Virus record (IMG/VR): IMGVR_UViG_3300032605_000010
Reading direction: 5' to 3' (one strand)
Source of the DNA: a virus
Lineage: Duplodnaviria; Heunggongvirae; Uroviricota; Caudoviricetes
Length of the DNA: 10,351 nt
This document shows, in pieces, positions 1,166 through 9,788 of the stretch. A model generated the notes under the pieces. The model had not been told where the DNA came from. It searched no databases and worked only from the letters and a program-made list of their open reading frames with translations. The translations under genes were made by a program, and so were the position numbers. Position 1 is the first letter of the stretch, and each line of letters begins with the position of its first letter.

Positions 1166-1231
1166 AAATTCTCTCTCTATCAATTTAGTATATCTTATTA
1201 TAATATTATTGGTTTAAAGTGTCAAGCACTT
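1166..1231 (-). promoter_or_regulatory. Cassette C1: sigma70-type promoter + leader + RBS
   Basis: AAGTGC-TTGACA (1220-1225), 17 bp, TATAAT (1197-1202), GAGAGAG, ATG. Confidence 0.9.
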
Positions 1232-1240
1232 TGTTGCACT

Positions 1241-1423
1241 TTATGCGAGTTTTTCTACTGAAAGAATATCAACATTACCTAATCTGAATAATGCAATCTC
1301 TTTTGCTTCTTCAGCAGTAAATGCCTTAACATAATCATATTTTACTTCAATTTCTTTTTTAAAGAAGTAATCATATGCTTCATATACAACTTCAAACTCT
1401 TTTAGTTTAGACCAATCGATCAT
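1241..1423 (-). CDS. hypothetical protein (60 aa)
   Basis: GGGAGAG RBS inside the end of the upstream ORF; ends just before cassette C1. Confidence 0.75.
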   Translation of the reverse strand: MIDWSKLKEFEVVYEAYDYFFKKEIEVKYDYVKAFTAEEAKEIALFRLGNVDILSVEKLA

Positions 1424-1424
1424 C

Positions 1425-1544
1425 TTACTCTCCCAAACCCAAATAATAATTAGTTAAGATTTGTTTCAATTTGTATTGGATGTAATAAACTACACCGAAA
1501 CCAACAAAGATTATTCCTAAAGACACATAACTAGCTATACTCAT
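1425..1544 (-). CDS. small membrane peptide (39 aa, MSIASYVSLGIIFVGFGVVYYIQYKLKQILTNYYLGLGE)
   Basis: ATG directly after cassette C2 RBS; one hydrophobic stretch; stop 1 nt before the next ATG. Not in the ORF track. Confidence 0.7.
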   Translation of the reverse strand: MSIASYVSLGIIFVGFGVVYYIQYKLKQILTNYYLGLGE

Positions 1545-1612
1545 TTTAATTCTCTCTCTATCAATTTAGTATAAGTTATTATACCTTAACGAATAGAAAG
1601 AATCAAGCACTT
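1545..1612 (-). promoter_or_regulatory. Cassette C2
   Basis: TTGATT (1601-1606), 17 bp, TATAAT (1578-1583), GA-rich RBS. Confidence 0.9.
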
Positions 1613-1627
1613 TGTTGCTCTTTTATT

Positions 1628-1703
1628 TGGAGCCACTGAGAGAACTCGAATCCCCAACCTTCTGATTACAAATCAGACGCACTACCAATTGTGCTACAGT
1701 GGC
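1628..1703 (-). tRNA. trnT: tRNA-Thr(UGU), CCA encoded
   Basis: 76-nt cloverleaf: GCCACTG/CAGTGGC, D stem GCAC/GTGC, TCTGA-TTTGTAA-TCAGA, T loop TTCGAGT. T stem is weak (A53-U61, two G-U pairs). Confidence 0.9.
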
Positions 1704-1706
1704 AAA

Positions 1707-1870
1707 TTAAATAAGTTATTGTTCTCAATCGAAGTCGAACCGATGTTTCTCAACTAGAGTGTCCTAGCCCAAACTAGACGACAGAAATAAATCTCCGATG
1801 GGATTTGAACCCATGTTTCTCAATTAGAGCGTCCTAAGCCTCTAGACGATAAGAGGAATAACTTATTTAA
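1707..1870 (-). ncRNA. candidate ncRNA: two tandem tRNA-Glu-like domains with shortened anticodon arms inside a 14-bp closing stem
   Basis: Inverted repeat TTAAATAAGTTATT at 1707-1720/1857-1870; two units with GTCT..GGAC D arm, CTC-5nt-GAG mini arm and 5-bp T arm; dedicated upstream promoter. Confidence 0.6.
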
Positions 1871-1873
1871 ATT

Positions 1874-1907
1874 ATTATACTTTAATCAGATGTATTTGTT
1901 AACCACT
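1874..1907 (-). promoter_or_regulatory. promoter without RBS module upstream of the candidate ncRNA
   Basis: AAGTGG-TTAACA (1897-1902), 17 bp, TATAAT (1874-1879); predicted start near 1867. Confidence 0.65.
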
Positions 1908-2053
1908 TTTTTACATCTTTTATAAACTTTTTTCGATTCGAACACTTTCGGTTTGTTATATTTCCAAGCATGTCAAGATGTTAATTGAATCATAAAACAG
2001 GCTTTAACAGCATCAAGGTCTGTTTTGTGAGTCTTTTTCTTTAAAAACGTCAA
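1886..2053 (-). pseudogene. possible interrupted small basic protein
   Basis: GAGAGA then TTG at 2053 (only 3 nt spacing); in-frame TGA at 1973-1975 followed by HAWKYNKPKVFESKKVYKRCKK. Confidence 0.3.
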
Positions 2054-2081
2054 AGTTCTCTCTTTGGGTATTGCTGTTTAA

Positions 2082-2243
2082 TTATACAACTTCTCTTTCT
2101 ATATAATAGAATTCAGACTCATACCTTCACTGTGAAAAAGTATATGCGGTCTGCTCATCTTCAAAAGTACCTGCGATTTTTGGTTCTTCCATGTAAGAAT
2201 CATCATAATACATTACATTATAAACATATTTCTCTTTATTCAT
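2082..2243 (-). pseudogene. cassette C3 gene with in-frame TGA (38 aa, or 53 aa with readthrough)
   Basis: MNKEKYVYNVMYYDDSYMEEPKIAGTFEDEQTAYTFSQ*RYESEFYYIEREVV*; TGA at 2127-2129. Confidence 0.55.
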
Positions 2244-2313
2244 ATTATATAATTCTCTCTATCAATTAAGTATAAGTTATTATATATAAGATAGAGAGAA
2301 ATATCAAGCACTT
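2244..2313 (-). promoter_or_regulatory. Cassette C3
   Basis: TTGATA (2302-2307), 17 bp, TATAAT (2279-2284). Confidence 0.9.
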
Positions 2314-2325
2314 TGTTTAAAAAAA

Positions 2326-2400
2326 TTAGAGAGCAAATTTGAGGACTCTTACCCCATCTTTTAATCCAAGCCTAAACACCAACTTGGAGATGCTTTCTAA
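2326..2400 (-). ncRNA. candidate 75-nt structured RNA, copy 1 (3' of tRNA-Met)
   Basis: Closing stem TTAGAAAGCA/TGCTCTCTAA, hairpin TCCAAG/CTTGGA, T-arm-like TGGGG-TAAGAGT-CCTCA; paralog at 2501-2576. Confidence 0.5.
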
Positions 2401-2420
2401 TGGTTGATCAGACCAACATT

Positions 2421-2495
2421 TGGTAGCAGGAGTTGGATTTGAACCAACGATCTTTGGCTTATGAGACCAACGAGATACCACTTCTCCATCCTGCG
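2421..2495 (-). tRNA. trnM: tRNA-Met(CAU), initiator (fMet)-type, CCA encoded
   Basis: 75-nt cloverleaf; unpaired C1/U72; A11-U24; anticodon arm TTGGT-CTCATAA-GCCAA; T arm GTTGG-TTCAAAT-CCAAC. Confidence 0.9.
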
Positions 2496-2500
2496 ATAAA

Positions 2501-2576
2501 TTAGAGAGCAAATTTGAGGACTCTTACCCCATCTTTTACCTAGACAATTAACCCCAAATCTAGTAATGTTTTCTAA
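2501..2576 (-). ncRNA. candidate 76-nt structured RNA, copy 2 (3' of the tRNA-Gln fragment)
   Basis: Same flanks as 2326-2400; the middle hairpin has a different sequence but still pairs (CTAGA/TCTAG). Confidence 0.5.
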
Positions 2577-2596
2577 TGGTTGATCAGACCAACATT

Positions 2597-2645
2597 TGAA
2601 GTTCCTACAGGATTCGAACCCATAATACCACAGTCAAAGTGTAGT
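2597..2645 (-). pseudogene. 3' half of tRNA-Gln(UUG)
   Basis: CTACA-CTTTGAC-TGTGG anticodon arm, ATGGG-TTCGAAT-CCTGT T arm, 3' acceptor strand AGGAACT-TCA; no 5' acceptor strand or D arm. Confidence 0.7.
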
Positions 2646-2653
2646 ATGTGTAT

Positions 2654-2686
2654 ATTATACTATCGGTATTACCAAATATCAACCAT
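2654..2686 (-). promoter_or_regulatory. promoter occupying the place of the tRNA-Gln 5' half
   Basis: TTGATA (2677-2682), 17 bp, TATAAT (2654-2659); the -35 overlaps the TGA stop of 2679..2933. Confidence 0.7.
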
Positions 2687-2933
2687 TGATTAAACTATTT
2701 TCAACAAGTTTAACATCTTTATGCATCACGTAAAATGAATCTGGAAATTCACTAAACGAAATCGCATAAACTTTTGACACACTTTTTTCTTCATTTTTTA
2801 TCAACACATCATAATTGTCAACTCTAACATTGGCAATGGTATCGATAATCGGTTCAAAACCACCAAAATCATATTCAACTTCTAAACCTTTAACACTGTT
2901 AATATCTTGTTTCATCATTTCTAATACAGTCAT
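2679..2933 (-). CDS. hypothetical protein (84 aa)
   Basis: ATG directly after cassette C4 RBS. Confidence 0.8.
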   Translation of the reverse strand: MTVLEMMKQDINSVKGLEVEYDFGGFEPIIDTIANVRVDNYDVLIKNEEKSVSKVYAISFSEFPDSFYVMHKDVKLVENSLING

Positions 2934-3000
2934 TTTAATTCTCTCTCAATTTCAAAGTATAAGTTATTATACCTTAACGATTAGAAAGAATCAAGCACTT
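2934..3000 (-). promoter_or_regulatory. Cassette C4
   Basis: TTGATT (2989-2994), 17 bp, TATAAT (2966-2971); spacer 16/17 identical to C2. Confidence 0.9.
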
Positions 3001-3015
3001 TGTTGCAGTTTTATT

Positions 3016-3090
3016 TGGAGCCACTCCACAGAATCAAACTGCGATCTAGAGATTACAAATCAGACGCACTACCAATTGTGCTACAGTGGC
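3016..3090 (-). pseudogene. chimeric/degenerate tRNA-Thr(UGU)
   Basis: First 40 nt and last 10 nt identical to 1628-1703; middle replaced; anticodon stem reduced to 2 bp; different intact T stem CGCAG/CTGTG; G7.G66 mismatch. Confidence 0.75.
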
Positions 3091-3093
3091 AAA

Positions 3094-3254
3094 TTAAATT
3101 ATAAAGACTGTAGGAATTGAACCTAACATAGAGACAGACCAAGCCACAACCAATGGTTATTTTTAAGTAGGAGAATTGAACTCCTTCGCAGGTCCTAGGG
3201 CTCCACTTTAACCAAAATAATCCTAAAAATAAAACATCAATCTTTATAATTTAA
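3094..3254 (-). ncRNA. candidate ncRNA: two T-arm domains inside a 16-bp closing stem
   Basis: Inverted repeat 3094-3109/3239-3254; T arms AGGAG-TTCAATT-CTCCT (3169-3185) and TAGG-TTCAATT-CCTA (3111-3125); same position relative to tRNA-Thr as 1707-1870. Confidence 0.5.
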
Positions 3255-3324
3255 ATTGCCCTCTTCGACTATGTATCCATAATCCTATCGACTTTAGGCT
3301 TTGCCGTTTTCCTAATTTTGGATG

Positions 3325-3438
3325 TTAATTTCCTATTAAAGAAACTAATATAACAGTCACAATAAATAACTGCCCGATTATATTCATTGGTAAAGTTACA
3401 ACAAATTCTTTTGGCTGCCTTACTTTATAATCTTTCAT
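3325..3438 (-). CDS. small membrane peptide (37 aa, MKDYKVRQPKEFVVTLPMNIIGQLFIVTVILVSLIGN)
   Basis: ATG after cassette C5 RBS; hydrophobic C-terminal stretch. Not in the ORF track. Confidence 0.65.
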   Translation of the reverse strand: MKDYKVRQPKEFVVTLPMNIIGQLFIVTVILVSLIGN

Positions 3439-3506
3439 TTTATTTCTCTCTCTATCAATTAAGTATAAGTTATTATATATAAGATAGAGAGAAATATCAA
3501 GCACTT
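3439..3506 (-). promoter_or_regulatory. Cassette C5
   Basis: TTGATA (3495-3500), 17 bp, TATAAT (3472-3477); spacer identical to C3. Confidence 0.9.
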
Positions 3507-3528
3507 CTGTATTTAATATAAAGATAAT

Positions 3529-3999
3529 TTATGCTGCTTCTTCCTCTTCGTAAAGTGCCATATTTTCAGAGATGGCAAAACAATCATCAATTTCTTTGGG
3601 GATATTTTCTTCCACCCAATTAGAATCACCTTGGATACTGTATTCATCTTCCTCACCATCCTTGAATGCCCCACAGAAGCCAATACCGCCTTCGTAATAA
3701 AAAGCTGTAACAGTAAACCCAAGTTCCTCAAGTTTTTGGTATCCTTCTATTGGAGGGCTCCAAGCTGAATCAAAATACACCCCGACTGAAGTATCTGTTT
3801 GTTCATAAATATATGCTTCTACAACGTCCCATTTGGTTCCCCAATTTTCCACTACGAAGCCATATTCCGATTCACAATCAGCTGGGATAGGTATAAATTC
3901 ACGAAGGAAACTATCGTTCTCCAAGGCTGCCACAGCTCTTTGGATCATAATTGGATCATCATGTTCTAAACGTAAATCATTTGAGCACCAATTAGGCAT
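3529..3999 (-). CDS. DUF1281/YubB ferredoxin-like family protein (156 aa)
   Basis: Motifs MPNWCSN, ENWGTKW, FDSAWSPP, YYEGG recognised from memory; AAGGAG RBS. Confidence 0.75.
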   Translation of the reverse strand: MPNWCSNDLRLEHDDPIMIQRAVAALENDSFLREFIPIPADCESEYGFVVENWGTKWDVVEAYIYEQTDTSVGVYFDSAWSPPIEGYQKLEELGFTVTAFYYEGGIGFCGAFKDGEEDEYSIQGDSNWVEENIPKEIDDCFAISENMALYEEEEAA

Positions 4000-4000
4000 C

Positions 4001-4111
4001 TTATTCTCCTTTCAATTTAGATTCAACAAAGTCAACCACATCAACAACTGTTAAGGTAAATAACCAGAACAAACAACCTAAAACTACGAAGTATTGGATA
4101 AATTCTAACAT
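4001..4111 (-). CDS. small membrane peptide (36 aa, MLEFIQYFVVLGCLFWLFTLTVVDVVDFVESKLKGE)
   Basis: ATG after cassette C6 RBS; its last codons supply the RBS of the next gene. Not in the ORF track. Confidence 0.7.
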   Translation of the reverse strand: MLEFIQYFVVLGCLFWLFTLTVVDVVDFVESKLKGE

Positions 4112-4175
4112 TTTATTTCTCTCTCAATTAAGTATAAGTTATTATAATCTAAGTGCTTAGAAGAATCAAGCACTT
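4112..4175 (-). promoter_or_regulatory. Cassette C6
   Basis: TTGATT (4164-4169), 17 bp, TATAAT (4141-4146). Confidence 0.9.
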
Positions 4176-4375
4176 TAAGCAAATATTTCTTTACTAAGAA
4201 TTTCTTCTTCTACAGTTTTGTGACAAGCATTTAACATCAACAATGCTACTTGGGTCGCAATACATCTTTCTTGTCCAGAAAGTGTCTTGGTATATTCAAG
4301 AACTTCATCGATGCTTTGGGTTGAGAATAAATCAAATTTTGGAATTGGATTTGGAACAGGTCTATTATCAATCAT
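4175..4375 (-). CDS. hypothetical protein (66 aa)
   Basis: ATG after C7 RBS; TAA stop abuts the AAGTGC of C6. Confidence 0.8.
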   Translation of the reverse strand: MIDNRPVPNPIPKFDLFSTQSIDEVLEYTKTLSGQERCIATQVALLMLNACHKTVEEEILSKEIFA

Positions 4376-4442
4376 TTTTTTCTCTCTCTATCAATTAAGT
4401 ATAAGTTATTATAACCGATACAGATTTAAAGATCAAGCACTT
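4376..4442 (-). promoter_or_regulatory. Cassette C7
   Basis: TTGATC (4431-4436), 17 bp, TATAAT (4408-4413). Confidence 0.9.
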
Positions 4443-4675
4443 TCAATAATATCTAATTGGATATTAACACCATCATATCTACCACCGATACCTAGGATCG
4501 TTTCAGTACGATTTTTGTATTCTAAACCAATCAATAAATTGTTTACATTTATGTTAAATTTACCATTCTGGCCTGTACCCTCGCGGATTTGTTTGACAGT
4601 GGTGTAAAATGATCCACCGATATCAGCCAATACGATTTTCACTTTAGTGCTAGGTTTAAATTTAAATTCTTTCAT
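4433..4675 (-). CDS. hypothetical protein (80 aa)
   Basis: ATG after C8 RBS; ends AGT GCT TGA inside the C7 -35. Confidence 0.8.
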   Translation of the reverse strand: MKEFKFKPSTKVKIVLADIGGSFYTTVKQIREGTGQNGKFNINVNNLLIGLEYKNRTETILGIGGRYDGVNIQLDIIESA

Positions 4676-4743
4676 TACGATTCTCTCTCTATCAATTAAG
4701 TATAAGTTATTATAACCGATATAGATTTAAAAATCAAGCACTT
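4676..4743 (-). promoter_or_regulatory. Cassette C8
   Basis: TTGATT (4732-4737), 17 bp, TATAAT (4709-4714); spacer 16/17 identical to C7. Confidence 0.9.
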
Positions 4744-4749
4744 TAAGAA

Positions 4750-4959
4750 TTATTTTGTTGAATAATGAACAGGTCTTTCGTATGATCCTGTTGATGATCT
4801 ATACACACTTACATATCTAAAGTCTTCAGCAATAAAGCTCTCGGTTTGATCACGGTCTATGTTCAACCCTAATGGCCAAACCTCAACCAATCCTTCTGAT
4901 TCTAATGCATCATTAAGGGTCGGGAACCAATTATTTTTTACTTCATATCTTCTTTTCAT
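4750..4959 (-). CDS. hypothetical protein (69 aa)
   Basis: Start moved to ATG 4959 after GGAGAGG; the track TTG start lies inside the C9 leader. Confidence 0.8.
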   Translation of the reverse strand: MKRRYEVKNNWFPTLNDALESEGLVEVWPLGLNIDRDQTESFIAEDFRYVSVYRSSTGSYERPVHYSTK

Positions 4960-5022
4960 CTTTCCTCTCCAATTCAAATTATAAGTTATTATAAATTAAT
5001 AGGAAAATAATGTCAAGCACTT
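4960..5022 (-). promoter_or_regulatory. Cassette C9
   Basis: TTGACA (5011-5016), 17 bp, TATAAT (4988-4993). Confidence 0.9.
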
Positions 5023-5053
5023 CGTAGCACTTCGTAGCACTTCGTAGCACTTC
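5016..5053. repeat. 10-bp tandem repeat AGCACTTCGT x3.8
   Basis: Directly visible; it amplifies the AAGTGCT element upstream of the C9 -35. Confidence 0.95.
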
Positions 5054-5395
5054 TTAAATCTTATACAGAGCAGAATACCAACTTGTGCATTGCTCGGTAT
5101 ACAAACCCACAGCTTCTAATGCTTCGCTCATCTTATTAATAAGTTCATAATTATAATTATCATAACTGAAATAATCACCTACAGATCCACCATCATGACA
5201 GATGATTAATTCTGAATGAGTACCATAATCTTCTTTTCGTTCTCTCCATCTTACAGGAGAATAAAAGGTTGTACATCCACCTGTATCGATTATTTTTTCT
5301 TCCATTACTTCCATAATGGTTTTATATGCAAGTTTCCCAACATCGGAAAGGTGTTCTGGCATTTGAGTATCTTCGGGTGAATAATTATTAAACAT
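5054..5395 (-). CDS. hypothetical protein (113 aa)
   Basis: ATG after C10 RBS; GGC..FYSP..W and HDGG segments look conserved but the family is not recognised. Confidence 0.85.
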   Translation of the reverse strand: MFNNYSPEDTQMPEHLSDVGKLAYKTIMEVMEEKIIDTGGCTTFYSPVRWRERKEDYGTHSELIICHDGGSVGDYFSYDNYNYELINKMSEALEAVGLYTEQCTSWYSALYKI

Positions 5396-5463
5396 TTTAT
5401 TTTCTCTCTTTTCAATTAAGTATGAGTTATTATAACCTTGTTGCTGGGAAATGTCAAGTATTT
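5396..5463 (-). promoter_or_regulatory. Cassette C10 (variant: no AAGTGC, 12-bp inverted repeat around -35)
   Basis: TTGACA (5452-5457), 17 bp, TATAAT (5429-5434); arms 5441-5452 and 5460-5471. Confidence 0.85.
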
Positions 5464-5479
5464 CCCAGCAAGGGCGTGG

Positions 5480-6133
5480 CTATGCAGTCTCTAACATTAA
5501 TCGGAATACTTTTTTCATTTTACGTCCATGTTGAGGATAAGCAATAACGTCTATATCCTTCGAATAACACGCTCTACAGCTCGAACATTTTCCCTCACGG
5601 TCATAGGCTTCGCAAACAAAAACACCTGCTGGTGCACTCTCAGCATCCGGAATGATTACCGATCCATGAATCCCTGGAGTAAATTCGCCAGTAATTGAAT
5701 CAGAAGAGAATCTTACCTTAACATTAGGTAAGGCATCCATTTCGGCAATTATTTTTGCGAATTTTGCAAATTTACCCATCCTTGTTGGCAACCAATATTG
5801 TGTGTTTGGAGTTGCTTTCATTACACTTAATATCTTTTTAGCAAGCTTTAAAGAATACATATCACCACTATCAAAAAACCTGAACCACTTTGCTTTTTTC
5901 ATCTCAGCAGTCATATCAGAGACCCATTCAGGACGTCTCCAATCTTCTTTATTCTCAGCTCTTGGTTCTTTTACGTTTGGGAATGCATAGTTACCAGTGG
6001 TGGCATAACAACCTGAACAAGCTGGAACCAACTCACCGTCCTCGTTTAATGATCCAGGGCAAGTTTCAAGAGCTTGTAAGCTCCAACTTTTCACGTTATC
6101 AAGTTTAGAAGTTTTAGAAATTCTTACAGTCAT
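5480..6133 (-). CDS. GP88-family Cys-rich protein (217 aa)
   Basis: CPG..ACSGCYA, FRFFDSGD, WLPTR, NVKVRFS and C-terminal KCSSCRAC motifs recognised from memory as phage gene product 88 family. Confidence 0.75.
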   Translation of the reverse strand: MTVRISKTSKLDNVKSWSLQALETCPGSLNEDGELVPACSGCYATTGNYAFPNVKEPRAENKEDWRRPEWVSDMTAEMKKAKWFRFFDSGDMYSLKLAKKILSVMKATPNTQYWLPTRMGKFAKFAKIIAEMDALPNVKVRFSSDSITGEFTPGIHGSVIIPDAESAPAGVFVCEAYDREGKCSSCRACYSKDIDVIAYPQHGRKMKKVFRLMLETA

Positions 6134-6200
6134 TTTAATTCTCTCTCAATTAATTAGTATAAGATATTATAACATATTAGGTTTCAAAGGTCAAGCACTT
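6134..6200 (-). promoter_or_regulatory. Cassette C11
   Basis: TTGACC (6189-6194), 17 bp, TATAAT (6166-6171); 6131-6200 is identical to 6615-6684. Confidence 0.9.
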
Positions 6201-6216
6201 CGTTGCCAAGTATATC

Positions 6217-6387
6217 CTATAAAATTACTTTTTCAGACAACATGATAAATTGTTTGAGCCCAAAATCGTCAATAATCCAACCACAAAACGGGTCTGGGGA
6301 AGAATAATGATCTTGTGGGTCAATCACCTCATACCATTTTTCTGGGGTGATTGACAGGGAGATTGAAGTTGCGGTTTTAACTTTCAT
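6217..6387 (-). CDS. hypothetical protein (56 aa, MKVKTATSISLSITPEKWYEVIDPQDH...)
   Basis: TAATG stop/start overlap with 6387..6617; fills the gap to C11. Not in the ORF track. Confidence 0.7.
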   Translation of the reverse strand: MKVKTATSISLSITPEKWYEVIDPQDHYSSPDPFCGWIIDDFGLKQFIMLSEKVIL

Positions 6388-6617
6388 TAGGTGAAGATGT
6401 TGTATTGAGCTTCAAGGTTTGCGAACTCAGCTTCAAGGATGACCATTTGTTGCTTAGATAAGTTTAGGCGATCTATAAAATAAGCCAGTGAGGTGGTCGC
6501 TGCTTCTAAAGTATAAAGATAATTTATATCAGATCCATAAGTGTCGTACTTAGATCTTTCTTGAGCCACTTTAACAGTTAGATCAACAAGGGCGAAGACG
6601 GAATCAGTTTTAATCAT
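6387..6617 (-). CDS. hypothetical protein (76 aa)
   Basis: ATG after C12 RBS. Confidence 0.8.
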   Translation of the reverse strand: MIKTDSVFALVDLTVKVAQERSKYDTYGSDINYLYTLEAATTSLAYFIDRLNLSKQQMVILEAEFANLEAQYNIFT

Positions 6618-6684
6618 TTTAATTCTCTCTCAATTAATTAGTATAAGATATTATAACATATTAGGTTTCAAAGGTCAAGCACTT
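6618..6684 (-). promoter_or_regulatory. Cassette C12
   Basis: TTGACC (6673-6678), 17 bp, TATAAT (6650-6655). Confidence 0.9.
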
Positions 6685-6889
6685 CTAACGGTCGCTTCGA
6701 AAAATAATTCACTTAATTTTTGGATAAGTTCTTCTTTACTTAAATCAATTAAATAACTATTGTTTTTTCCTCTTAAATTAAGGTAAGTTTTATCTTTTTT
6801 CATTGAACTTTCAACTACAAAATGTTCATGTTCACTTAGGAAAAAAGTGAACGACCCACCGCCATCACGTGGTAAAGTAATTTTTTCAT
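6675..6889 (-). pseudogene. frameshifted gene (71 aa if the A6 run were A7)
   Basis: ATG AAAAAA gives a 17-aa ORF; the shifted frame ITLPRDGGGSFTFFL...EATVRSA is open to TGA in the C12 -35. Confidence 0.7.
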
Positions 6890-6955
6890 TTTATTTCTCT
6901 CTCTTTATTAAGTATAAATTATTATACTAAAGACCCATCCTTAGGTCAAGCACTT
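6890..6955 (-). promoter_or_regulatory. Cassette C13
   Basis: TTGACC (6944-6949), 17 bp, TATAAT (6921-6926). Confidence 0.9.
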
Positions 6956-6960
6956 TTAGA

Positions 6961-7176
6961 TTAAATTTCTATTAGAAGTTTTCTTATCGCAGAAATTTCT
7001 TGGCTATCCCATTCTTTAGAATATTTTTTCTCAGGAAAATGTATAAGGATTAAATACTGAATATTTTCTAAAGTATATTTTAAGGTATCGATGTTAATTT
7101 TACCATCATTATAGTCATCTCCAGCGAAAAGGACTTGAACCAACAAAGAATTAAATAAGGCTTGTTTTTTTGACAT
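6961..7176 (-). CDS. hypothetical protein (71 aa)
   Basis: ATG after C14 RBS. Confidence 0.8.
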   Translation of the reverse strand: MSKKQALFNSLLVQVLFAGDDYNDGKINIDTLKYTLENIQYLILIHFPEKKYSKEWDSQEISAIRKLLIEI

Positions 7177-7241
7177 TTTTCTCTCTCCTTTCTTAAGTTA
7201 TGATTCATTATACCTTAAAAAAAGAGAGAATACAAGCACTT
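7177..7241 (-). promoter_or_regulatory. Cassette C14 (divergent leader)
   Basis: TTGTAT (7230-7235), 17 bp, TATAAT (7207-7212). Confidence 0.85.
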
Positions 7242-7244
7242 TTT

Positions 7245-7661
7245 TTACCCGATGTTTATTGATCGAACAAGTTCCATTCTGTATTCATTATTCGGTCCTT
7301 CAAAATATACAATCACATCATCAATTTCAGCACCAATCCGAATGTATTCAATATTCAGGTCAGGATAATTAAATGTTGAATTATAAAACAAATCGTCAAA
7401 GAAACTTACAGCTGGAAAATCAACATCACCCGAGTACCATTTTTCCCGCGTCGCCTGAAATAACAATTCATAATAACCATTTTCAGCTACATGAAACAAA
7501 GTTTTACCAGTTAAATTAAAAGAATTTTGTTCAAGATCCATTACCTTTAATTGTACTTCTTCAGGAAGTTCGGCGAATTTATCTTCATATTCATAACCAA
7601 ATTCTTCCATTTGGACAGCACCACCGTAAATCCTTACAGCCACGTCAGATAAATAAGCCAT
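7245..7661 (-). CDS. acidic hypothetical protein (138 aa)
   Basis: AGGAG RBS in the end of the upstream ORF; TAA abuts C14. Confidence 0.85.
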   Translation of the reverse strand: MAYLSDVAVRIYGGAVQMEEFGYEYEDKFAELPEEVQLKVMDLEQNSFNLTGKTLFHVAENGYYELLFQATREKWYSGDVDFPAVSFFDDLFYNSTFNYPDLNIEYIRIGAEIDDVIVYFEGPNNEYRMELVRSINIG

Positions 7662-7663
7662 AA

Positions 7664-7858
7664 TTAAACTCCTGCAAAGGTATTAGAGATAGAGAAACGT
7701 GGAGCATCGCCACCAACGGGTTTACCTCTAGATTCCTTAGCACGACATGTTGATTTAATTTTAATTTGTTTAGCAGGAACTTCTTTAATTGAATTGCCAT
7801 TTAGAACGAATTCTAGAGTGTCGTTTAGAAGTTTTTGTCTCAATTCAGTTTTAGTCAT
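7664..7858 (-). CDS. basic hypothetical protein (64 aa)
   Basis: Start moved to ATG 7858 after the C15 RBS. Confidence 0.8.
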   Translation of the reverse strand: MTKTELRQKLLNDTLEFVLNGNSIKEVPAKQIKIKSTCRAKESRGKPVGGDAPRFSISNTFAGV

Positions 7859-7924
7859 TTTTTTCTCTCTCAATTAATTAGTATAAGTTATTATAACCGA
7901 TGTAGTTTTATAATACAAGCACTT
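7859..7924 (-). promoter_or_regulatory. Cassette C15
   Basis: TTGTAT (7913-7918), 17 bp, TATAAT (7890-7895); spacer shared with C16-C18. Confidence 0.9.
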
Positions 7925-7926
7925 TA

Positions 7927-8364
7927 TTAATATTCTTCGTCTGGATCAAAGTATTCATCATCTTCGTCCTCAGGCTCCCATGCAGTGTCTATACAAACGT
8001 TTCCGAAGTCAAATATACCACTCTCGGCGATTACAGAAAACGGAGCGTAGAAGTCGTGTACGACGCCATCAGTTACATTTTTTTGATCTTCCTGAGAAAT
8101 ATCTTTAGTTGCGATTATACCTAATAAACCAGCATCTACACCATAAGTATTGCCTAAATTATCTTGATATTCGCCATCACCATAAGCTGTCATCGCTAAA
8201 AAAAACCTACGACCGTCCGATAAATTAAAAGCACCGTTAATTAAATTATTACCTTTAATTGTTAAATCGCAAACTTCTTTCCACTCATCATGCATCACAT
8301 AACTTAGGTCGCCGATATAATATTCGCCAGCAGGAAATTCAGCAGAAACTTTTTCATATCTCAT
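7927..8364 (-). CDS. acidic hypothetical protein (145 aa), possibly DUF4241-like
   Basis: GEYYIGD, TAYGDG, YGVDAG motifs; D/E-rich tail. The family guess is weak. Confidence 0.8.
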   Translation of the reverse strand: MRYEKVSAEFPAGEYYIGDLSYVMHDEWKEVCDLTIKGNNLINGAFNLSDGRRFFLAMTAYGDGEYQDNLGNTYGVDAGLLGIIATKDISQEDQKNVTDGVVHDFYAPFSVIAESGIFDFGNVCIDTAWEPEDEDDEYFDPDEEY

Positions 8365-8430
8365 TTTATTTCTCTCTCTTTATTAAGTATAAGTTATTAT
8401 AACCGATGTAGTTTTATAATACAAGCACTT
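8365..8430 (-). promoter_or_regulatory. Cassette C16
   Basis: TTGTAT (8419-8424), 17 bp, TATAAT (8396-8401); 8362-8430 is identical to 9019-9087. Confidence 0.9.
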
Positions 8431-8599
8431 AATAATATATTATCAAATTATTTTCGGTTGGGTCTATTTCTATATCAAAAGCTGGGTCTAATATAACATC
8501 CTTTATTCTAGCTTCGCTTATAAATATTTCGTTGTTTAGATCTACACCTTGGGCTTCCGCTTGTAATAATAAATCTAATAAATCTTTAGCTGTAATCAT
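8429..8599 (-). CDS. acidic hypothetical protein (56 aa, MITAKDLLDLLLQAEAQGVDLNNEIF...)
   Basis: ATG after C17 RBS; TAA overlaps the AAGTGC of C16. Not in the ORF track. Confidence 0.75.
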   Translation of the reverse strand: MITAKDLLDLLLQAEAQGVDLNNEIFISEARIKDVILDPAFDIEIDPTENNLIIYY

Positions 8600-8667
8600 T
8601 TTTATTTCTCTCTCAATTAATTAGTATAAGTTATTATAACCGATGTAGTTTTATAATACAAGCACTT
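8600..8667 (-). promoter_or_regulatory. Cassette C17
   Basis: TTGTAT (8656-8661), 17 bp, TATAAT (8633-8638). Confidence 0.9.
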
Positions 8668-8688
8668 TTTTTCTAATGGGACACAAGA

Positions 8689-8717
8689 TTTTTCCCGCGT
8701 CCCATCAAGTTAAGTAA
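8689..8717. repeat. 29-bp dispersed repeat (second copy 9107-9135)
   Basis: TTTTTCCC(G/C)CGTCCCATCAAGTTAAGTAA, 28/29 identical. Confidence 0.9.
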
Positions 8718-8721
8718 TAGG

Positions 8722-9021
8722 TTAACATTCTTCTACTTTAGCTTCAACCTTAAATTTTCTTACCCAATCGTAAATTTGGGAATCGTTAAGTAACTCCATA
8801 CCTTGAACTATAAATTTAGCGATAGATGAATTTAACTTAGTTTGTTGAGCGTATTCGGTTGAAATTTCATTTTCATCGTCGTAAACATATAACCATATTC
8901 CGTAAGCATCAACAAGTATGGTACCGATATTTTCATCTACGGCATAATAAGGATCAGAACCATCTTCAAAACTAGAAGCACCTAAATAAGCTTCATCCCA
9001 ACCTTTAGTAAATTTTATCAT
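8722..9021 (-). CDS. acidic hypothetical protein (99 aa)
   Basis: ATG after C18 RBS. Confidence 0.85.
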   Translation of the reverse strand: MIKFTKGWDEAYLGASSFEDGSDPYYAVDENIGTILVDAYGIWLYVYDDENEISTEYAQQTKLNSSIAKFIVQGMELLNDSQIYDWVRKFKVEAKVEEC

Positions 9022-9087
9022 TTTATTTCTCTCTCTTTATTAAGTATAAGTTATTATAACCGATGTAGTTTTATAATACAAGCACTT
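9022..9087 (-). promoter_or_regulatory. Cassette C18
   Basis: TTGTAT (9076-9081), 17 bp, TATAAT (9053-9058). Confidence 0.9.
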
Positions 9088-9138
9088 TTTTACATTTATT
9101 TTTTAATTTTTCCCCCGTCCCATCAAGTTAAGTAAGCA

Positions 9139-9372
9139 CTAAATTGTCGCGATTAATTTCCCATTAGGCAAATAACTAATGAATACCTTAGCAGCATTTA
9201 ATACACCATCAAAACTTTCTGGTGCATAAAATTCAACTTCATAAGCGGCAGCATACTTTTCTTTATCATAAGTATCTACTAAATCAGCAGATTTTATACG
9301 GTCACAGACCCATCCCTCACCTAAGAAAATTAAGGTTTCAATTTCGGCTTTTGATAAATTTTTAGGATTCAT
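9139..9372 (-). CDS. hypothetical protein (77 aa)
   Basis: ATG after C19 RBS. Confidence 0.8.
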   Translation of the reverse strand: MNPKNLSKAEIETLIFLGEGWVCDRIKSADLVDTYDKEKYAAAYEVEFYAPESFDGVLNAAKVFISYLPNGKLIATI

Positions 9373-9439
9373 TTTATTTCTCTCTCAATTAATTAGTATA
9401 AGTTATTATAACTCAGCTGTATTTTAAACACAAGCACTT
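9373..9439 (-). promoter_or_regulatory. Cassette C19 (first of the array in transcription order)
   Basis: TTGTGT (9428-9433), 17 bp, TATAAT (9405-9410). Confidence 0.85.
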
Positions 9440-9485
9440 TTTACATTTATTTTTTAATTTTTTCCCGCCTCGCATTTTTTAAAAA

Positions 9486-9520: not shown

Positions 9521-9634
9521 AAGTCATAATAATAAGAAAGCGGAAAAAACCGTATGAAGGCTGTGAAGCTGGTCCCCAACTAGCTGGCCACTTCGTTTTA
9601 AATTTAAAACTTAATTTACTCATTAATTACTTTC

Positions 9635-9750
9635 CATAAGTAATCACTTAGATTACATAAGTAATCACTTAGATTACATAAGTAATCACTTAGATTACAT
9701 AAGTAATCACTTAGATTACATAAGTAATCACTTAGATTACATAAGTAATC
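9635..9750. repeat. 21-bp perfect tandem repeat CATAAGTAATCACTTAGATTA x5.5
   Basis: Units start at 9635, 9656, 9677, 9698, 9719 and 9740 (partial). Confidence 0.95.
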
Positions 9751-9788
9751 GGATACTTTGATCGGAAATCCGACGAATTTTTTTACCG

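What the first reader, a model, noticed from the sequence alone, without database searches (positions are those of the whole stretch)
2324..2597. Two tRNA-sized (75/76 nt) structured repeats, each placed right after a tRNA 3' end
Seen: about 100-nt direct repeats (2324-2422, 2498-2597) flank tRNA-Met, and each begins right after a tRNA 3' end (CCA or TCA, then AATGTTGGTCTGATCAAC hairpin). The core has a 10-bp closing stem and a T-arm-like TGGGG-TAAGAGT-CCTCA. Its middle hairpin differs completely between copies but still pairs (TCCAAG/CTTGGA vs CTAGA/TCTAG). Inference: a three-way-junction tRNA-like RNA lacking an anticodon arm, or a structured processing or stability element of the tRNA operon. 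I do not recognise it as a known family.
Basis: partly seen in the sequence, partly recalled or inferred. Interest (0 to 1): 0.75.

Follow-up and report, generated by a model that had tools for sequence, protein, structure and literature searches.

The report
Knotted small RNA among phage tRNAs
The two repeats are copies of a small RNA with two predicted pseudoknots that recurs in the tRNA gene clusters of many unrelated bacterial viruses; I found it in no RNA catalogue or paper I could search, it is not a tRNA look-alike, and its job is untested.

Summary
The repeats are real (minus strand, 2496-2596 and 2321-2420). They belong to a family of over 70 distinct 85-160 nt RNAs in phage tRNA clusters, including cultured Pseudomonas phages. 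Rfam has no match; T4, T5, KVP40, FelixO1 and PAK_P1/P3 lack it. Covariation supports a short stem P2, a pseudoknot between the variable hairpin loop and the 3' tail (own pairs -8.7 versus permuted -4.2 kcal/mol), and a 2-bp docking of the T-loop's extruded bases (C-G, U-G, U-A; a prediction that held in 7 of 7 new variants). Copy 2 looks like a recombinant with a broken tail pseudoknot. No partner protein, Ro60 or obligate RNase P was found. Best reading: a free, nuclease-resistant RNA cut from the tRNA precursor that acts through its shape on a host factor, most likely as a decoy (about 35%). There are no expression data. This scan's earlier notes do not describe this family.

The parts
2496..2596 (-). 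Copy 1 of the RNA family (whole unit)
   Evidence: Model R2 64.6 bits, E 3e-13; the copy is in the model's training set
2321..2420 (-). Copy 2 (whole unit), followed by a run of T; probable recombinant: 5' part like L011 element a, tail like L011 element b and copy 1
   Evidence: R2 68.6 bits; 2422-2340 is 98.8% identical to L011 9624-9706 and 2357-2054 is 99.3% identical to L011 9899-10202
2577..2591 (-). Copy 1 P1 hairpin (loop sequence varies across the family)
   Evidence: An upstream hairpin folds in 66 of 66 members (lenient cut-off, no shuffle control)
2568..2576 (-). Copy 1 purine-rich J1/2 linker; its last purine (2569) and the C at 2568 are predicted to pair with the T-loop's extruded G-U (2521-2520)
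   Evidence: A at position -3 in 66 of 66 (partly required by the parser); pair counts C-G 22, U-A 6, U-G 4 and A-U 23, G-U 11
2530..2567 (-). Copy 1 P2 stem (2567-2564 with 2534-2531) enclosing the P3 hairpin (2563-2540, loop 2558-2545)
   Evidence: P2 covaries: 4 of 5 pairs with changes on both sides
2517..2529 (-). Copy 1 P5: 3-bp stem with a 7-nt loop, a T-loop pentamer UAAGA plus two extruded bases
   Evidence: 99% paired, compensatory variant in three related sequences
2501..2516 (-). Copy 1 3' tail, pseudoknot partner of the P3 loop; G-U rich and weak here
   Evidence: -5.7 kcal/mol; family-wide test
2401..2415 (-). Copy 2 P1 hairpin
   Evidence: MFE fold
2355..2400 (-). Copy 2 J1/2, P2 and P3 (loop 2382-2371)
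2342..2354 (-). Copy 2 P5 T-loop hairpin
2326..2341 (-). Copy 2 tail; does not pair with its own P3 loop
   Evidence: -1.4 kcal/mol with its own tail, -10.2 with the tail of L011 element a
2421..2495 (-). tRNA-Met(CAT) with encoded CCA, between the copies
   Evidence: ARAGORN; Rfam 62.8 bits
2597..2647 (-). 5'-truncated tRNA-Gln(UUG)-like 3' half at the start of the predicted transcript
   Evidence: Rfam tRNA partial hit 2607-2662; also present in L011 behind a different promoter
2654..2682 (-). Sigma70-type promoter, 11 of 12 consensus matches, predicted to drive the unit
   Evidence: consensus match only

Best explanation
Each repeat is the gene of a small, independently folding RNA that phages keep in their tRNA operons. 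Shown by comparison of sequences: the order P1 hairpin, A-rich linker, P2 stem enclosing one to three variable hairpins, 3-bp T-loop hairpin, 3' tail; a long pseudoknot between the first inner loop and the tail; and a 2-bp docking of the linker's end onto the T-loop's two extruded bases. Inferred: it is transcribed with the tRNAs or from its own promoter, released at the AU-rich spacers by host tRNA processing, and protected from 3' exonucleases by the tail pseudoknot. Only the architectural core is conserved and every free loop varies, so it should act through its compact shape, not by base-pairing to a target. Since no phage partner protein travels with it, the partner is probably a host factor. 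My single most likely role is a stable decoy or inhibitor of a host RNA-binding nuclease or tRNA-directed defence factor. In this window copy 1 is probably intact and copy 2 is a recombinant with a broken tail pseudoknot. My odds: fold about 0.9; free trans-acting RNA about 0.6; decoy role about 0.35.
For: 66 distinct members parsed plus 7 T-loop variants. P2 and P5: 94% of cells paired, 52 cells with double changes, 0 of 500 shuffles as high. Loop-tail pseudoknot: mean -8.7 versus -4.2 kcal/mol, best of 10,000 permutations -5.5; also in L370, L361, XD2, Amme-3 and an L045 variant. T-loop docking: all 7 distinct members found by searching for A at the first extruded position have U at the partner site, 6 in one clade and 1 in a separate short form. 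13 of 66 members abut no tRNA, and some sit just behind promoter-like sequence. Adjacent tRNAs are of 16 types downstream and 14 upstream. Up to 4 diverged copies per locus. No Ro60/TROVE in 14 carrier genomes; no protein specific to five complete carrier genomes except a large baseplate-like cluster. Precedent for stable RNAs of unknown role in a phage tRNA region: T4 RNAC and RNAD (PMC3014915).
Against: Nothing here tests binding or defence, so the decoy role rests on context and elimination. 53 of 66 members abut a tRNA, which also fits a cis role. Members are related, so pair counts are not independent events, and most were found with the T-loop hairpin as the search word, which inflates its apparent invariance.
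Confidence: 0.35

Rival explanations
1. Cis-acting structural element of the precursor: a compact knot that insulates neighbouring tRNAs during folding or blocks exonucleases, so it matters only in place.
For: 35 of 66 abut an upstream tRNA, 44 a downstream one, 26 both; the spacing to the next tRNA is tight, mostly 20-28 nt.
Against: 13 of 66 abut none; tandem copies occur without a tRNA between them (L044, L045, L069, L079); most tRNAs in the same clusters have no copy beside them; an invariant T-loop core is more than an insulator needs.
Confidence: 0.18
2. A new class of small self-cleaving ribozyme that helps cut up the tRNA precursor, in the way theta ribozymes do.
For: Size, pseudoknots, variable stems, multiple copies and tRNA adjacency match the general profile; theta ribozymes are a precedent (PMC10879173).
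Against: The HDV-like nested double pseudoknot and J4/2 cytosine are not present (alignments). Nearly all invariant bases are explained by the T-loop and its docking. Upstream tRNAs often encode CCA and the spacing to P1 varies. No Rfam ribozyme hit.
Confidence: 0.15
3. A detached, remodelled RNase P specificity (S) domain that binds tRNA elbows and works in trans with host RNase P or with the S-domain-less mini RNase P RNAs of some phages.
For: Three words occur in the same order as in E. coli rnpB: the A-rich linker resembles J11/12, and L004 shares 16 of 17 bases with the stretch from J12/13 to L13. Mini RNase P-like RNAs lie in the same clusters in L036, L048, L081 and L209; 6 of 21 such contigs carry the family, 4 of them first reached through it.
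Against: No covariance-model hit on rnpB and no Rfam RNase P hit on the element. The strand that forms P13 in rnpB pairs upstream here. No mini RNase P core found in complete carrier genomes (pattern tests tuned to one subfamily). A complete 364-kb phage has the mini RNase P but not this RNA.
Confidence: 0.12
4. Ligand- or ion-sensing RNA that uses a riboswitch-like T-loop docking module but acts on a non-coding transcript.
For: T-loops that take an inserted base from another loop are part of cobalamin riboswitches (PMC7367189; criteria in PMC6158498).
Against: No downstream protein gene or expression platform; few conserved bases are left over for a pocket.
Confidence: 0.07
5. Selfish or neutral module spread by recombination within tRNA clusters.
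For: Copy 2 looks chimeric with a broken pseudoknot; L011 holds a 3' remnant and L034 a hybrid; distribution is patchy.
Against: Compensatory changes in several helices across phages of 96-354 kb; no mobility gene shared by carriers.
Confidence: 0.07
6. One reading: a three-way-junction tRNA mimic without anticodon arm, closed by a 10-bp stem.
For: It is the MFE fold of copy 2 (-24.7 kcal/mol) and may be what this recombinant copy adopts; the stem is followed by a T run and could aid termination.
Against: The closing stem is not conserved; no CCA end at an acceptor-like stem; the outer T-arm pairs lack covariation.
Confidence: 0.04

Closest known systems
Phage T4 RNAC and RNAD (species 1 and 2 stable RNAs)
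   Same: Small non-tRNA RNAs of 120-140 nt encoded in a phage tRNA cluster, role unknown (PMC3014915).
   Different: No shared motif and no model hit in T4. T4 rnaC carries a canonical tRNA T-loop near its 3' end; this family does not, and has a tail pseudoknot.
Theta (minimal HDV-like) ribozymes
   Same: Small pseudoknotted RNAs next to phage tRNA 3' ends (PMC10879173).
   Different: Different topology; no J4/2 catalytic C; has a T-loop hairpin and a 5' hairpin; catalysis untested.
Bacterial type A RNase P RNA, S-domain (Rfam RF00010)
   Same: Similar purine-rich words in the same order, including the L13 loop sequence.
   Different: Different helix partners, no P7-P11 or P14, no model score.
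T-loop docking modules of cobalamin and FMN riboswitches
   Same: T-loop pentamer whose extruded bases pair with a distant strand (the FMN case and the 2-bp pairing are from my own knowledge; T-loop criteria in PMC6158498).
   Different: No riboswitch core, no regulated gene, no Rfam hit.
YrlA / Y RNAs with Ro60 (Rfam RF02553)
   Same: Phage small RNAs with a T-loop, found near tRNAs.
   Different: No 5'-3' closing stem, no D arm or acceptor stem, no TROVE gene in 14 carrier genomes.
PAK_P3 sRNA2
   Same: Expressed small RNA between two tRNAs of a Pseudomonas phage (PMC4933390).
   Different: Lacks the motif; no model hit in PAK_P3 or PAK_P1.

Membership tests
tRNA / tRNA-like RNA | Acceptor stem joining 5' and 3' ends, stacked on the T arm, ending in CCA | tested here: not met
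   Closing stem no better than permuted pairs; the tail pairs with the P3 loop instead
tRNA / tRNA-like RNA | 5-bp T stem with a U54-U55-C56 loop | tested here: not met
   3-bp stem; loop positions 55-56 are A-A or A-C
tRNA / tRNA-like RNA | T-loop geometry (U-A pair at positions 1 and 5, purine at 4) | tested here: inconclusive
   Sequence fits in all members; 3D structure not testable
T4 rnaC/rnaD | Sequence or structure homology | tested here: not met
T4 rnaC/rnaD (as a kind) | Discrete stable RNA processed from the tRNA transcript | not testable with these tools
Theta / HDV-like ribozyme | Nested double pseudoknot with catalytic C in J4/2 | tested here: not met
   Covarying helices give another topology; no Rfam hit
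Theta / HDV-like ribozyme | Self-cleavage at the tRNA 3' end | not testable with these tools
   Needs an in vitro assay
RNase P RNA S-domain | CR-II and CR-III-like words flanking a variable helix, and the L13 loop word | tested here: inconclusive
   Word-level likeness by eye; no model score
RNase P RNA S-domain | P13 formed with a downstream strand; P7-P11 present | tested here: not met
   The equivalent strand pairs upstream in P2
RNase P RNA (split form) | A catalytic-domain RNA in every carrier genome | tested here: not met
   None found in complete carriers; RF00010 itself misses the mini form, so the test rests on patterns
Y RNA / YrlA | Ro60 (TROVE) gene in the genome and a 5'-3' binding stem | tested here: not met
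   0 of 14 genomes, controls ring
Any Rfam 15 family | Covariance-model match | tested here: not met

The most novel reading that the evidence does not exclude
The family is an undescribed functional class: either a free-standing RNase P S-domain-like clamp that phages evolved to grip or process tRNAs, or a new self-cleaving ribozyme built around a docked T-loop, carried by unrelated phages including cultured Pseudomonas phages.
Probability: 0.25. Interest if true: 0.88.

Novelty: new variant of a known kind. Interest (0 to 1): 0.62.

Why it matters
Phage tRNA clusters have been known since the 1970s to hold stable non-tRNA RNAs of unknown role (T4 bands C and D; PMC4933390, PMC3014915). This is a widespread family of such candidates with a covariation-backed secondary and tertiary model. 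It sits unannotated in cultured phages of Pseudomonas putida KT2440, P. syringae and P. aeruginosa, while two other Pseudomonas phages (PAK_P1, PAK_P3) lack it, so expression, deletion, cleavage and pull-down tests can be done directly. If it is a decoy, it adds an RNA-only counter-defence; if a ribozyme or S-domain-like clamp, a new class of functional RNA.

Tried and rejected
Rfam on the window, on 16 homolog loci and on one isolated member: tRNAs only. BLAST of the window element against cultured phages found only tRNA-Met or chance hits; the Escherichia virus TH47 hit lies in non-homologous sequence. Two gapped pattern scans returned mostly chance matches. A scan with the 5' hairpin gave one chance hit in a coding region. 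The GTDB scan gave one true member, L089, on a contig whose proteins cluster with Otagovirus-like phages, so I found no sign of a chromosomal family. T4 rnaC/rnaD and PAK_P3 sRNA2 were rejected as homologs. The model found nothing in T5, KVP40, FelixO1, XacN1, Aeh1, RaK2, phi92, RSP15, phiCbK, S-CRM01 or Jay2Jay (strict filters). Hammerhead, twister, pistol, hatchet and hairpin cores were compared from memory only and did not fit. The partner-protein search in neighbourhoods and in whole genomes was negative. Literature searches found no description, but the supplement of the 10,006 viral candidate RNAs (PMC10690425) is not held, so a prior automatic prediction there cannot be excluded. The T-loop review PMC3748142 was not available.

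Full report
Observation. The window is part of a 37-kb phage contig with many sigma70-type promoter cassettes and small genes on the minus strand. The two repeats are real and flank tRNA-Met(CAT). A promoter-like site at 2682-2654 would drive a transcript made of a 5'-truncated tRNA-Gln-like half, copy 1, tRNA-Met and copy 2, ending at a T run before the next promoter at 2307. Folding either copy alone is not better than shuffles, and Rfam finds only tRNAs.

Homologs. Scans with the 3' hairpin word found the element in viral and metagenome contigs, the true members in or near tRNA clusters. Parsing gave 66 distinct members, and a later scan added 7 variants. Covariance models built from them recover short and long forms. 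They also find the element, unannotated, in cultured phages: the P. putida phage Amme-3 group, phiPsa300, UAVern, Bobbio and P. aeruginosa phage XD2. Carrier genomes range from 96 to 354 kb. T4, T5, KVP40, FelixO1, PAK_P1, PAK_P3 and eight other tRNA-bearing phages gave no significant hit. Because the search word was the T-loop hairpin, more diverged relatives are probably missed.

Fold. The family reads: variable P1 hairpin, A-rich linker, P2 stem of 3-5 bp enclosing a P3 hairpin and up to two more hairpins, a short A-rich joint, a 3-bp hairpin with a 7-nt loop, and a tail ending in an AU-rich spacer. P2 and P5 are 94% paired with 52 double changes, above all 500 shuffles and all slid controls. 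A variant in L045, L069 and L071 changes two of the three P5 pairs on both sides; these three are related and count as about one event. The P3 loop pairs with the tail: across 46 distinct loop-tail pairs the mean duplex energy is -8.7 kcal/mol against -4.2 for permuted partners, and no permutation in 10,000 came below -5.5.

A tertiary contact. One new member (L359) had A instead of G at the first base after the T-loop pentamer and U instead of C at the end of the linker. I predicted a base pair and searched for more members with that A. All 7 distinct ones have U at the partner site. Alignment counts are C-G 22, U-A 6, U-G 4, with 2 'unpaired' cells caused by visible misalignment of L262 and L370; the neighbouring pair is A-U or G-U in 34 of 34. 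A parser that ignores this position gives 6 of 6 against 9 of 58. Six variants belong to one clade that also holds U-G forms; L370 is a separate short form, so this is about two independent events. The pattern fits a T-loop docked by a 2-bp pseudoknot, a module I know from riboswitch structures (own knowledge; T-loop criteria in PMC6158498). The same C could instead pair with the invariant G that precedes P5; the data favour the T-loop contact but do not exclude both.

The two copies here. The close relative L011 (about 98% identical over most of the window) has one element whose loop and tail pair well (-12.8), then tRNA-Gly, then a remnant with the same tail as both window copies. Copy 2 matches the first L011 element at its 5' end and the remnant at its 3' end; its loop pairs with the L011 tail (-10.2) but not its own (-1.4). 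Copy 1 pairs weakly with its own tail (-5.7, G-U rich) and about as well with the L011 tail (-5.4), so its pseudoknot is plausible but not shown.

Function. Members abut many different tRNAs; 13 of 66 abut none, some follow promoter-like sequence directly, and up to four diverged copies occur in one locus. No phage protein is specific to carriers and Ro60 is absent. The words resemble the RNase P S-domain, and earlier notes of this scan describe phage mini RNase P RNAs that lack that domain. I found such RNAs beside the element in four loci, but not in complete carrier genomes, and one complete mini RNase P phage lacks the element, so an obligate split enzyme is unlikely. T4 rnaC/rnaD, PAK_P3 sRNA2, theta ribozymes and Y RNAs fail their membership tests. 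I therefore read it as a free, compact RNA that acts by shape on a host factor, most likely as a decoy. That step is inference only; expression could not be checked.

Novelty. There is no Rfam family, no annotation in the cultured phages, and no paper in ten searches; one large candidate set could not be checked. Look-ups in this scan's earlier notes by sequence, words and place found no description of this family; one note shares short words with L036 but describes a different RNA. It is a new structured RNA family of a known kind, the orphan RNAs of phage tRNA clusters. Interest 0.62.

Noticed in passing
window 1704-1873 (-): Two tandem tRNA-Glu-like RNAs with D- and T-arm-like parts but a shrunken anticodon arm, enclosed by a 22-bp inverted repeat (I16); about 96% conserved in L011.
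   Followed up: partly
window 3088-3260 (-): A second long inverted repeat (I11) enclosing two other T-arm-bearing tRNA-like units, upstream of a tRNA-Thr copy.
   Followed up: no
window 3016-3092 (-): Second tRNA-Thr(UGU) sharing 49 identical nt with 1628-1703 but with an atypical T arm; Rfam 43 bits, missed by ARAGORN.
   Followed up: no
window 2597-2647 (-): tRNA-Gln(UUG) 3' half placed at the predicted transcription start; L011 has the same half behind a different promoter, so the truncation may be selected.
   Followed up: partly
   Followed up: no
window 2580-2588 and 2404-2412 (-): The P1 loop of both copies reads like an Ile(GAU) anticodon loop; shared with L001 and L011 but not with the wider family.
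   Followed up: partly
window 1189-9443: At least 18 copies of a promoter plus purine-rich leader cassette, each in front of a small gene or RNA (D1-D3).
   Followed up: no
window 9611-9757: 21-nt tandem repeat and further short repeats to 10311, where GC skew changes sign: possible replication origin.
   Followed up: no
L036 2431-2639 (+); also L048, L081, L209, L309-L325: Miniature RNase P-like RNA with CR-I and CR-V words that can form P4; not detected by Rfam.
   Followed up: partly
L001 about 1430-1490 (+): tmRNA-like words (5' arm and tag-like reading frame) just upstream of the family member; seen by eye only.
   Followed up: no
L089 (JAHFOH010000003.1): Contig of a Thaumarchaeota MAG whose proteins cluster with Otagovirus-like phages: probably a mis-binned phage.
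   Followed up: partly
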